This document shows, in pieces, positions 40,870-42,918 of a DNA stretch of 64,000 bases (positions are counted from its first letter, which is position 1; each line of letters begins with the position of its first letter). A program made the position numbers and the translations under genes. Under the pieces are notes generated by a model, which saw only the letters and a list, made by a program, of their open reading frames with translations, was not told the origin of the DNA and did no database searches. The DNA is from Dictyostelium discoideum (taxonomy: Eukaryota): NCBI GenBank assembly GCA_000004695.1, contig CM000151.3, positions 6,016,001 to 6,080,000 on the forward strand. Direction: 5' to 3'.

Positions 40870-42918
40870 CTAAACAGTTTGAATCTTTTTAAATTTTGAT
40901 CTTGATGGATCATATTTTTTTCCAGTTCTTCTAGTTCTATCTTCTTCATAGGAAGCATAATTACCTTCATGAACGATTACTTGACCATCACCTTCAAATG
41001 CAATAATATGAGTACAAAGACGATCTAAAAAGTAACGATCATGACTAATGATAACAGCACAACCTGGATAATCTTCAATGGCAGTTTCTAAATTACGTAA
41101 TACATCAACATCCAAATCATTGGTAGGTTCATCCAATAATAAAAGATTACAACCTCTTTTAATCATTTTTGCAATATGAACACGATTACGTTCACCACCA
41201 GATAGAGAGCCAATGAATTTATCTTGTTCTGGACCACGGAAATTGAATTGAGAGATGTATTCTCTTACGTGAATTTTATAATTGTCACCCATAACTACAT
41301 CATCGGAGCCATCGGCAACCTCTTCATAGATGGTTTTCTCGTCGTCCATTGAAGCACGTGATTGTGCGACGAACCCCATACGAACGGTTTCACCCACTCT
41401 AATTGAACCGGTCAATGGTTTCAATTCACCAGTCATGATTCTAAAAAGTGTTGATTTACCTGTACCATTTGCACCAATGATACCAACGATTGAACCAGGT
41501 TCAATATCGATATTTAAATTTTTAAATAAAGTTCTACCATCAAATTCCATACTAATATCTTTGGCTTCAAATACTACTCTACCTAAACGTGGACAAGGTG
41601 GAATTGAAATTCTACCTGGTTCTCTGAATTTCTCTGGTGCACTTGCCACCAATTCATTGTATTTATCAATACGAACTTTATTCTTTTTAGTTTGAGCTTT
41701 AACACCACCTTTAAGATACTCCAATTCCTTTTTAATGGCTTTCTTTCTTCCCTCCTCCTTTTTATTCTCCATTGAGAGACGTTGCTCCTTTTGTAATAAC
41801 CAACCCGAGTAATTTCCTTTGAATGGTATGAGTGAACCACGATCAACCTCTAAAATCCAATTGGCGACATTATCTAAAAAGTAACGGTCATGAGTGATTG
41901 CAACCACTGTACCACGGTAGTCATGCAAGAAACGTTCTAACCATGCAACACTTTCTGCATCCAAATGATTTGTTGGTTCATCCAATAGTAATACATCAGG
42001 ATTTGAAATTAGTAAACGTGCCAATGCAACTCTACGTCTTTCACCACCTGACAATGTTGTTACATTACTATCACTTGGTGGGCAATTTAATGCGTCGATT
42101 GCAATTGCAATCTTTCTCTTTAAATCCCAAAGTCTTTCTTCCTCAATAATATCAGCCAATTCATCTCTTCTCTTTTCCAATTGTTTTCTTTCTTGTTTAG
42201 TTAACTCTTCATCTTCATCCTCTAATCTTTCCTCGATCTCTTCATGTTCATCCAATATCTCCTTCTTTTCTGCTACACCATCGAAAATATTCTCCTCAAC
42301 AGTTTTATCTGCATCCAACTCTGGTTCTTGATGAAGGAATCCAACTGTTAATCCTTTTGAATATAATACTTGTCCATCATGTTCCGTATCTTCTTGTGAT
42401 AAAATACGCATAAATGATGATTTACCACTACCATTGGTACCAAGTAAACCAATCTTTGATCCTTCTAAAAATGAAAGTGATATATCTTTTAATAAAATTT
42501 TACCATCATCTAATCTTTTATTAACTCCAACCATTGATAATATAACTTTATCTGTTTGATGTTTATCTGCTCCTGTTTTTTTTTCATTTCCTTTTTTTTT
42601 TGCTTTTTTAAAAAAATAAATTAATATTTAAAATTTTAAAATATTATATATTATATGTATGTGTGAGTGATTTTTAATAAATATTTACTTACTTGAATAT
42701 TGTTGAATTAAACCATATGATAAATTTTTGTTTAATTTTAAATTTTCATTTTTATTATTATTATTATTTAATTGAATTGAATTAACTATACTTTCTTTAT
42801 TATTTAAAGTAGTAATTGAAGTTATTGATTTATTTACATTTGTAATATAACAATATCCATTCTTTGTTGAATTAAGCAAAGATAATGGTTTTCTTAATTT
42901 TGAAAATGATGAAATCAT
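40870..42918 (-). CDS. ABCF-family ATPase of bacterial EttA (YjjK) type, two ABC domains and no TMD, with an N-terminal presequence-like exon; 2 exons
   Basis: Exon 1 is 42918-42693 (MISSFSKLRKPLSLLNS... basic and hydroxylated with no acidic residues, donor gtaagt). Intron is 120 nt. Exon 2 is 42572-40870. Exon 2 has blocks near-identical to E. coli EttA ([78 protein letters not shown]). Homology starts before the first Met of exon 2 (KVILSMVGV aligns with EttA FVYTMHRV), which supports the splice. Possibly abcF4. Confidence 0.85.

What the first reader, a model, noticed from the sequence alone, without database searches (positions are those of the whole stretch)
40870..42918. Bacterial EttA-type ABCF translation factor domesticated with a presequence exon
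Exon 2 encodes a protein that aligns end to end with E. coli EttA (energy-dependent translational throttle). Some blocks are close to 70-80% identical, for example [45 protein letters not shown].DRG. That is far more bacterial-like than the cytosolic eukaryotic ABCF1-3 paralogs. The gene has host AT-rich codon usage and a 120-nt GT..AG intron. A separate 75-aa first exon (MISSFSKLRKPLSLLNSTKNGY...) is basic and hydroxylated with no acidic residues, like a mitochondrial presequence. This suggests an organellar, endosymbiont-derived ribosome-associated ABCF that gained its targeting peptide by exon addition. The splice is supported because homology to EttA begins 12 codons upstream of the first Met of exon 2.
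Basis: partly seen in the sequence, partly recalled or inferred. Interest (0 to 1): 0.75.

Follow-up and report, generated by a model that had tools for sequence, protein, structure and literature searches.

The report
Dictyostelium abcF3: known mitochondrial-type EttA gene
This is the already annotated Dictyostelium discoideum gene abcF3, a bacterial-type EttA translation ATPase with an N-terminal extension that a 2019 survey had already classified as "mEttA" with a predicted mitochondrial targeting peptide, so the reading is largely right but not new.

Summary
On the minus strand a 226-nt first exon, a GTAAGT...AG intron and a 1.7-kb second exon encode a full-length EttA-type ABCF ATPase. 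It passes the NCBIfam EttA equivalog cut-off, aligns end to end with E. coli EttA (E about 1e-168, 47% identity), and keeps all ATPase motifs.

The spliced 642-aa product is identical to GenBank AAL87693 / UniProt Q8T6B6, "non-transporter ABC protein AbcF3" of Dictyostelium discoideum. Murina et al. 2019 already list this species as encoding "mEttA", a small eukaryotic subfamily with predicted mitochondrial targeting peptides.

Corrections:
- The RefSeq AX4 model (652 aa) uses an acceptor 30 nt upstream, and comparative data favour that model.
- Exon 1 contains two Glu residues.
- Detectable EttA homology starts about 5-6 codons before the exon-2 Met, not 12.
- Published TargetP support for the D. 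discoideum protein is weak (mTP 0.589, lowest reliability class).

Added here: the phase-1 intron sits at the same codon, right after a conserved (R)-x-Y-S motif, in 7 of 9 dictyostelid species examined, so it predates their radiation. My distance trees place the protein firmly in EttA but not inside Alphaproteobacteria. Endosymbiotic origin and "exon addition" remain unproven inferences.

Novelty: already known.

The parts
42693..42918 (-). Exon 1 (226 nt; ATG at 42918). It encodes about 75 aa of N-terminal extension (MISSFSKLRKPLSL...QQYS), the putative mitochondrial presequence, and ends 1 nt after the conserved Y-S codons.
   Evidence: The N-terminus is conserved in D. firmibasis and D. 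purpureum. There are 5 K/R and 0 D/E in the first 30 aa.
42603..42692 (-). Intron common to both public gene models (90 nt, GTAAGT donor, T-rich tract then AG at 42604-42603, phase 1).
   Evidence: An intron at the identical codon position and phase occurs in D. firmibasis, D. dimigraforme, P. violaceum, H. album, A. subglobosum and C. fasciculata. It is absent in D. purpureum and T. lacteum.
42573..42602 (-). Disputed 30 nt. It is coding (..TKKKGNEKKTG..) in RefSeq XP_643616 (652 aa). It is probably coding.
   Evidence: It matches D. firmibasis at 26/30 positions with no indel and stays in frame, while the rest of the intron is essentially unalignable. It is 24 nt and in frame in D. dimigraforme. 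The downstream AG is preceded by an A-run rather than a T-run. Most orthologues have K-rich sequence (YS-x-KK) right after Y-S.
40870..42572 (-). Exon 2 core. It encodes the complete EttA-homologous twin-NBD protein, with the TAG stop at 40872-40870.
41959..42441 (-). NBD1 motifs: Walker A GTNGSGKSS (42441-42415), arm subdomain (42273-42124), signature [10 protein letters not shown] (42054-42025), and Walker B with catalytic Glu [11 protein letters not shown] (41991-41959).
   Evidence: The arm is only 16% identical to E. coli and 5 aa longer.
41581..41817 (-). Inter-domain linker equivalent to the EttA P-site tRNA interaction motif (PtIM). It has the same length as in E. coli, with 44% identity and no indel.
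   Evidence: alignment to E. coli residues 242-322; PF12848 ABC_tran_Xtn.
41029..41475 (-). NBD2 motifs: Walker A GANGTGKST, signature LSGGERNRVH, Walker B with catalytic Glu [11 protein letters not shown], and H-loop ISHDRYF.

Best explanation
This is the nuclear gene abcF3 of Dictyostelium discoideum, a member of the eukaryotic "mEttA" subfamily of ABCF ATPases.

Shown:
- One phase-1 intron is removed, most likely 42692..42603, giving a 652-aa precursor. The 642-aa product of the downstream acceptor is the alternative model.
- The C-terminal roughly 560 aa are a complete EttA orthologue-grade protein. Both ATP sites, both catalytic glutamates, an arm subdomain and an EttA-length PtIM linker are present.
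- The first ~75 aa are a poorly conserved, basic, Ser/Thr/Asn-rich extension. It ends in a conserved (R)-x-Y-S motif that resembles an MPP R-3 cleavage site.

Inferred:
- The extension is a cleavable presequence that imports the protein into the mitochondrial matrix.
- The mature protein binds the E site of the bacterial-type mitoribosome in its ATP form and contacts the L1 stalk and the P-site tRNA through the PtIM.
- As described for E. coli EttA, it then modulates the first rounds of elongation according to ATP/ADP and to difficult N-terminal nascent sequences.
For: Identity and prior knowledge:
- 100% match to AAL87693 / Q8T6B6 "non-transporter ABC protein AbcF3"; the 652-aa variant is XP_643616 / Q86IB7.
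- Murina et al. [quoted passage not shown]

EttA membership:
- NF008775 scores 764 bits against a cut-off of 599.
- 3J5S and 4FIN match at about 1e-168, end to end.
- ATPase motifs are intact and the PtIM aligns without indels.
- All EttA sequences separate from Uup with 100% bootstrap.

Host gene:
- GC3 is 0.21.
- The intron position is conserved in 7 of 9 dictyostelid species.
- Tfb4-AcpS-abcF3 synteny is conserved.

Targeting:
- All 14 eukaryotic homologues carry extensions of 35-107 aa with net positive charge. All but the short A. subglobosum model have no D/E in the first 30 aa.
- R-x-Y-S is present in H. album, A. subglobosum, T. lacteum and P0130, and R-S-F-A in P0012.
- TargetP gives mTP 0.905 for the 658-aa entry, whose length matches C. 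fasciculata, and 0.589 for the 652-aa entry, whose length matches D. discoideum. The table truncates species names, so these assignments are by length.

Function of the bacterial prototype: the review in PMC12856214.

Insertional mutants of abcF3 could not be recovered in one study, PMC7190356. That would fit an important function but is weak evidence.
Against: - No experimental localisation or ribosome-binding data were found. The supplementary tables of the Dictyostelium and Acanthamoeba mitochondrial proteome papers are not held.
- TargetP for D. discoideum is borderline (0.589, RC 5). The 646-aa entry, whose length matches D. purpureum, scored 0.479 and was not called mitochondrial.
- The hydrophobic moment of the extension is not above shuffled controls (z at most 1.8).
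- In D. discoideum the Arg of the R-3 motif is replaced (QQYS).
- The arm subdomain, which contacts the L1 stalk in E. coli, is only 16% identical.
- The score is below the trusted cut-off of the older subfamily model TIGR03719 (768 against 806.75).
Confidence: 0.75

Rival explanations
1. An EttA-like factor of non-mitochondrial bacterial origin. It would have been acquired by horizontal transfer into an early eukaryote or amoebozoan lineage from a non-alphaproteobacterial donor, and only later fitted with a targeting peptide. The function and location could be the same as in the best explanation; only the ancestry differs.
For: - In both NJ analyses Alphaproteobacteria are monophyletic (86-99% bootstrap) and exclude the eukaryotic sequences, which branch outside the sampled bacterial EttA.
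- Best bacterial identities are spread evenly over Gamma- and Alphaproteobacteria: 56% to a Methylococcales sequence, 54% to a Rhodospirillaceae sequence.
- Distribution among eukaryotes is patchy, at 3 phyla and 14 species.
Against: - Basal placement of long eukaryotic branches next to a distant outgroup is the expected long-branch artefact of distance methods.
- The bacterial clade that excludes them has only 50-72% support once more phyla are added.
- With P0012 as query, almost all named top hits are Rhodospirillales-type Alphaproteobacteria.
- Murina et al. regard an endosymbiotic origin as likely.
Confidence: 0.3
2. The N-terminal extension is not a mitochondrial presequence. The protein would act in the cytosol or another compartment on 80S ribosomes or another target, and the extension would be a low-complexity Dictyostelium-style appendage.
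For: - TargetP scores for the entries matching D. discoideum and D. purpureum are weak or negative, and Acanthamoeba and Emiliania mEttA are predicted as "other".
- There is no significant amphipathic moment.
- The extension contains poly-Asn, which is common in Dictyostelium proteins.
Against: - The extension is present in every eukaryotic homologue, including GC-richer organisms without Asn runs. P0130 begins MACFLRVQRFVTAARLTRLP..., which is classic presequence composition.
- A conserved R-x-Y-S junction motif marks the boundary.
- Oomycete and C. fasciculata orthologues score mTP 0.75-0.94.
- The mature part stays close to bacterial EttA, which works on 70S-type ribosomes.
Confidence: 0.15
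3. Bacterial contamination or a very recent transfer that is misread as a host gene.
For: High similarity to bacterial EttA.
Against: - Host-like codon usage: GC3 is 0.21 against 0.65-0.97 in bacterial genes.
- It has a spliceosomal intron with a GTAAGT donor.
- Orthologues at 70-90% identity exist in every dictyostelid genome examined, with a shared intron position and shared neighbours.
- Sigma-70 promoter-like sites are no more frequent than in shuffled sequence.
Confidence: 0.01

Closest known systems
mEttA subfamily of eukaryotic ABCF proteins (Murina et al. 2019, J Mol Biol 431:3568, PMC6723617)
   Same: This very gene is the D. discoideum representative; Table S1 lists AX4 as encoding mEttA. 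It shares the bacterial-type EttA core, the N-terminal extension and the predicted mitochondrial targeting.
   Different: Nothing differs in kind. My tree joins it at 96-97% with four other eukaryote-like sequences, but only weakly (52% or unresolved) with the Phytophthora mEttA.
E. coli EttA (YjjK), the energy-dependent translational throttle (PDB 4FIN, 3J5S)
   Same: It is 47% identical over the whole length. It shares the twin NBDs, both catalytic Glu residues, the arm, and a PtIM linker of identical length. It passes the NCBIfam equivalog cut-off.
   Different: It has about 75-95 extra N-terminal residues and a divergent arm that is 5 aa longer and highly acidic. It is encoded by an intron-containing nuclear gene, and its presumed client is the mitoribosome. 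None of the biochemical properties have been tested.
cpEttA / algEttA (plastid-type EttA of plants and algae; Murina et al. 2019)
   Same: These are also bacterial-type EttA proteins encoded in the nucleus with predicted organellar transit peptides.
   Different: They form a separate clade in my tree: Chlamydomonas plus Cyanidioschyzon cpEttA at 81% bootstrap, grouping with bacterial EttA rather than with the Dictyostelium clade. Their predicted target is the plastid.
Cytosolic eukaryotic ABCF1 (ABC50), ABCF2 (Arb1) and ABCF3 (Gcn20)
   Same: They have the same ABCF architecture: two NBDs joined by a linker, with no transmembrane domain.
   Different: They are far more distant: E 1e-59 for human ABCF1 and 1e-54 for yeast Arb1, against 1e-168 for EttA. 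The Dictyostelium name "abcF3" is a serial number and does not imply orthology to human ABCF3.
Presequence acquisition by exon recruitment in plant mitochondrial genes (for example cytochrome c1, rps11, rps14/sdhB). Recalled from the literature, not checked here.
   Same: An intron separates the targeting peptide from the mature, bacterial-derived domain, almost exactly at the predicted cleavage site.
   Different: No donor gene sharing the exon was found, and the only search was uninformative. Two dictyostelids lack the intron altogether.

Membership tests
EttA (NCBIfam NF008775 equivalog / TIGR03719 subfamily) | Full-length profile match above the curated cut-off | tested here: met
   NF008775 scores 764.4 bits against a cut-off of 599, covering profile positions 3-555 of 556. 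The older TIGR03719 scores 768.3, below its cut-off of 806.75.
EttA | Two ABC nucleotide-binding domains with Walker A, signature, Walker B plus catalytic Glu, and H-loop in both | tested here: met
   All motifs are present and 67-100% identical to E. coli.
EttA | PtIM inter-domain linker of EttA type and an arm insertion in NBD1 | tested here: met
   The 81-aa PtIM aligns without indels at 44% identity. The arm is present but only 16% identical and 5 aa longer. PF12848 is also matched.
EttA | Branches with EttA rather than with Uup or other ABCF subfamilies | tested here: met
   100% bootstrap for all EttA against Uup outgroups in NJ trees. These are distance methods only.
EttA | ATP-dependent binding to the ribosomal E site, gating early elongation | not testable with these tools
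   No experimental data were found for any mEttA.
mEttA (Murina et al. 2019) | Eukaryote-encoded EttA-like protein assigned to the subfamily by HMM and phylogeny | tested here: met
   D. discoideum AX4 is listed as encoding mEttA. It forms a clade with other eukaryote-like sequences at 96-97%. The link to Phytophthora mEttA is weak.
Matrix-targeted mitochondrial precursor | N-terminal presequence: basic, lacking acidic residues, amphipathic, with an MPP cleavage motif, and predicted by a targeting predictor | tested here: inconclusive
   Composition fits, with 5 K/R and 0 D/E in the first 30 aa. The Y-S junction motif is conserved, but Arg is missing in D. discoideum. The amphipathic moment is not above shuffles. 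Published TargetP is 0.589 at RC 5.
Matrix-targeted mitochondrial precursor | Experimentally found in mitochondria | not testable with these tools
   The proteome supplements are not held and no paper mentions the accession numbers.
Endosymbiont-derived (alphaproteobacterial) gene | Sister to or nested within Alphaproteobacteria in a phylogeny | tested here: not met
   Alphaproteobacteria are monophyletic at 86-99% and exclude the eukaryotic clade. The method is prone to long-branch artefacts, so this is not a refutation.
Cytosolic eukaryotic ABCF1-3 | Closest similarity to ABCF1, ABCF2 or ABCF3 | tested here: not met
   E 1e-59 for human ABCF1 and 1e-54 for yeast Arb1, against 1e-168 for EttA.

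The most novel reading that the evidence does not exclude
The phase-1 intron lies 1 nt after the conserved (R)-x-Y-S junction between presequence and mature EttA, and it is shared by all four major dictyostelid groups. It could be a relic of the event that fused a pre-existing targeting exon to a transferred bacterial ettA gene. mEttA itself could be a vertically inherited component of the ancestral mitochondrial translation apparatus that animals, fungi and plants have lost. If so, ATP/ADP-sensitive E-site throttling would be an ancestral feature of mitochondrial translation, testable in a tractable model organism.
Probability: 0.2. Interest if true: 0.45.

Novelty: already known. Interest (0 to 1): 0.15.

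Why it matters
No mitochondrial ABCF has been studied experimentally, and none is known in animal or yeast mitochondria. Dictyostelium abcF3 is therefore a convenient entry point for asking whether an EttA-type E-site factor couples mitochondrial translation to the organelle's energy state.

That idea is already implicit in the 2019 classification. As a genome-scan finding, this item only re-identifies an annotated gene. The modest additions here are:
- the conflict between the two public gene models (642 against 652 aa);
- the ancient, precisely placed boundary intron;
- the conserved Y-S junction motif;
- the lack of a recoverable alphaproteobacterial signal.

Tried and rejected
- Search for a second gene sharing the exon-1 peptide, the only direct test of exon duplication or recruitment. 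The word index found no candidate, not even the protein itself, so the result is uninformative.
- Experimental localisation. The Dictyostelium mitochondrial compendium (PMC9118663) and the Acanthamoeba mitochondrial proteome (PMC13632651) do not mention ABCF or EttA in the main text, and their supplementary tables are not held. An accession-number search found no papers.
- Anjard and Loomis 2002, the original description of abcF3 (PMC117992), is not held.
- The scan of GTDB genomes returned mostly Sphingomonas because of the peptide patterns chosen. It is not a ranking of closest bacterial relatives.
- Amphipathic-helix test of the presequence: not above shuffled controls.
- Bacterial promoter and terminator scan: at background level, as expected for a eukaryotic gene.
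- Maximum-likelihood phylogeny: no ML program is installed. Only NJ with Kimura or gamma distances was possible, so the deep placement is tentative.
- Contamination or recent transfer was rejected.
- An alternative cytosolic isoform starting at Met89 was rejected. That Met is confined to the D. discoideum clade; other dictyostelids have Leu.
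Full report
**1. What is there**

The window is extremely AT-rich (GC about 0.16-0.32) with poly-Asn coding runs, typical of Dictyostelium nuclear DNA.

On the minus strand, a 554-codon ORF (42534..40870) lies downstream of a 77-codon ORF (42918..42685). 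Joining 42693 to 42572 removes a 120-nt GTAAGT...CAG intron in phase 1 and gives an open 642-codon reading frame.

**2. Identity**

- The 642-aa product is 100% identical over its full length to GenBank AAL87693.1 / UniProt Q8T6B6, "non-transporter ABC protein AbcF3" of Dictyostelium discoideum.
- The same cluster holds the RefSeq AX4 model XP_643616.1 / Q86IB7. It is 652 aa and reads ...QQYSTKKKGNEKKTGADKH... instead of ...QQYSRADKH....
- The window is therefore D. discoideum, and the gene is annotated.

**3. Family**

- The protein passes the NCBIfam EttA equivalog model: NF008775 scores 764 bits against a cut-off of 599, covering profile positions 3-555 of 556. It falls just under the trusted cut-off of the older TIGR03719 model (768 against 806.75).
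- Against solved structures the best matches are E. coli EttA (3J5S, 4FIN; E about 1e-168, end to end) and M. tuberculosis EttA. Uup follows at 5e-103. Human ABCF1 is at 1e-59 and yeast Arb1 at 1e-54.
- Identity to E. coli EttA is 47% overall. Both Walker A, signature, Walker B plus catalytic Glu, and H-loop motifs are intact.
- The 81-residue inter-domain PtIM aligns without a single indel (44% identity). The arm subdomain is present but divergent (16% identity, 5 residues longer, very acidic).
- The claim [quoted passage not shown] is correct.

**4. Already described**

- Murina et al. 2019 (PMC6723617) classified 16,848 ABCFs. [quoted passage not shown] - Their Table S1 lists D. discoideum AX4 as encoding ABCF7, ABCF2, mEttA and ABCF6.
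- Their TargetP table truncates species names, so I matched its three Dictyostelium entries to species by length. The 652-aa entry (the length of the D. discoideum RefSeq model) has mTP 0.589, called M at the lowest reliability class. The 658-aa entry (the length of the C. fasciculata protein) has 0.905. The 646-aa entry (the length of the D. purpureum protein) has 0.479 and is not called mitochondrial.
- I found no experimental work on any mEttA. One study notes that simple insertional mutants of abcF3 could not be recovered (PMC7190356).

**5. Gene model**

Two acceptors are in public use, and comparative data favour the upstream one (AG at 42604-42603, a 90-nt intron, exon 2 starting at 42602):

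- The 30 nt in dispute (42602..42573) match D. firmibasis at 26/30 positions, with no indel and in frame. The rest of the intron differs in length and is essentially unalignable.
- In D. dimigraforme the segment is 24 nt, again a multiple of three with no stop.
- The upstream AG follows a T-rich tract in all three species, whereas the downstream AG follows an A-run.
- Most orthologues have Lys-rich sequence directly after Y-S (YSKK, YSSKK, YSTKK), which only the 652-aa model reproduces.

This is suggestive, not proof. RNA-seq would settle it, and both sites might be used.

**6. The intron and the presequence boundary**

- I mapped each annotated orthologue onto its genomic locus. A phase-1 intron lies at exactly the same place, one nucleotide after the Y-S codons, in seven species: D. 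discoideum, D. firmibasis, D. dimigraforme, P. violaceum, H. album, A. subglobosum and C. fasciculata.
- D. purpureum and T. lacteum encode the whole precursor in one uninterrupted ORF.
- The intron therefore predates the dictyostelid radiation and was lost twice.
- The Y-S dipeptide is invariant in dictyostelids. It is preceded by Arg at -3 in H. album (RYYS), A. subglobosum (RHYS), T. lacteum (REYS) and the non-dictyostelid transcript P0130 (RCYS). P0012 has RSFA.
- From established knowledge of mitochondrial processing peptidase, this resembles the R-3 cleavage motif R-x-(F/Y/L)|(S/A). D. discoideum itself has QQYS.
- The part up to Y-S evolves much faster than the rest: 75% against 90% identity to D. 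firmibasis, and 25-44% against 72-80% to more distant species. That is expected for a targeting peptide.

**7. Is it a presequence?**

- All 14 eukaryotic homologues have a 35-107-aa extension with net positive charge. There are 3-5 K/R in the first 30 residues and no D/E, except in the short A. subglobosum model.
- Exon 1 of D. discoideum has two Glu residues (positions 42 and 58), so "no acidic residues" is true only for the first 41 residues.
- The maximal helical hydrophobic moment is not above shuffled controls (z at most 1.8).
- Together with the weak published TargetP score, the targeting inference is reasonable but unproven. I put mitochondrial location at about 0.75-0.8.

**8. Origin**

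- Contamination or recent transfer is excluded. GC3 is 0.21, close to the 0.05-0.19 of neighbouring genes and far from the 0.65-0.97 of bacterial ettA genes. The gene has a spliceosomal intron. It has orthologues in all dictyostelid genomes examined. Tfb4-AcpS-abcF3 synteny is conserved.
- The second NJ tree had 47 sequences and 524 columns, with Kimura or gamma distances and 200 bootstraps. It included named EttA, cpEttA, mEttA and Uup rows taken from the Murina alignment.
- In that tree all EttA sequences separate from Uup at 100%, and Dictyostelia are monophyletic at 100%.
- Dictyostelids group with four other eukaryote-like sequences at 96-97%. These are two EukProt transcripts and two metagenome contigs, all with N-terminal extensions.
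- Phytophthora mEttA joins this group only weakly (52% or unresolved).
- Alphaproteobacteria form their own clade (86-91%) without the eukaryotes. The first tree gave the same picture.
- An alphaproteobacterial origin is thus not recovered. However, long eukaryotic branches next to a distant outgroup are a classic artefact, and support for a bacteria-only clade is just 50-72%. Endosymbiotic origin remains a plausible inference, not a result.

**9. "Exon addition"**

A very old intron lying one nucleotide from the predicted cleavage site is what exon recruitment would leave behind. Intron insertion into an already complete precursor gene explains it equally well. The only direct test available was a search for another protein sharing the exon-1 peptide, and it was technically uninformative.

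**10. Mechanism proposed**

Shown:
- the gene structure;
- EttA-grade homology;
- intact catalytic and ribosome-contact modules;
- a conserved basic extension and junction motif.

Inferred:
- import through a cleavable presequence;
- cleavage near QQY|S;
- binding of the ATP form to the mitoribosomal E site, with the PtIM reaching the P-site tRNA;
- modulation of early elongation as described for E. coli EttA (review PMC12856214).

**11. Verdict**

Novelty: already known. Interest: low (0.15).

Noticed in passing
window 43162-43608 (-): The gene immediately upstream of abcF3 (about 240 bp away, same strand) is an AcpS-type 4'-phosphopantetheinyl transferase (PF01648, E 6e-14) with a poly-Asn insert. 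The Tfb4-AcpS-abcF3 order is conserved in D. firmibasis (L001) and D. dimigraforme (L045). From memory, Dictyostelium AcpS was reported to act on mitochondrial ACP, so two bacterial-type, probably mitochondrial genes may sit side by side. I did not check this.
   Followed up: partly
window 42573-42602 (-): Public records disagree on the abcF3 gene model: 642 aa in AAL87693 and some new strain annotations, 652 aa in RefSeq AX4, and 640-641 aa in D. citrinum and D. cf. discoideum. The difference is the choice of 3' splice site.
   Followed up: yes
L045 1001-5485 (D. dimigraforme, protein P0002): The 953-aa annotated protein fuses the abcF3 orthologue to the downstream gene. Its C-terminal part matches window ORFs 39300-39659 and 38662-39231 (-), a predicted membrane protein with no Pfam hit. 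This is probably an annotation artefact.
   Followed up: partly
window 40610-40743 and 40738-40869: Two tandem copies of an AT-rich unit of about 127 nt (84-92% identical over the segments found) lie directly downstream of the abcF3 stop codon.
   Followed up: no
window 42990-43045: An uninterrupted poly(T) run of about 50 nt on the minus strand lies in the short AcpS-abcF3 intergenic region, just upstream of the abcF3 start.
   Followed up: no
window 35213-37156 (+): An intronless 647-aa glutamine-hydrolysing asparagine synthase (PF00733, E 7e-81, plus GATase_7) with a run of about 23 Asn inserted between the two domains.
   Followed up: no
window 46699-47145 (+): A 148-aa ORF ending in a SEC-C metal-binding motif (PF02810, CPCGSGKKYKKCC), a motif best known from bacterial SecA.
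   Followed up: no
protein P0013 (ENA, 836 aa): This database protein is E. coli EttA with about 280 residues of another ABCF inserted at the [11 protein letters not shown] Walker B repeat. It looks like an assembly chimera.
   Followed up: no
L043 and L044 (JGI metagenome contigs, 2200 and 1971 nt): Two environmental contigs encode uninterrupted EttA-like precursors with 84-95-aa basic N-terminal extensions, and they group with the dictyostelid clade. They are likely transcripts or intronless genes of unidentified protists, which would widen the mEttA distribution.
   Followed up: partly
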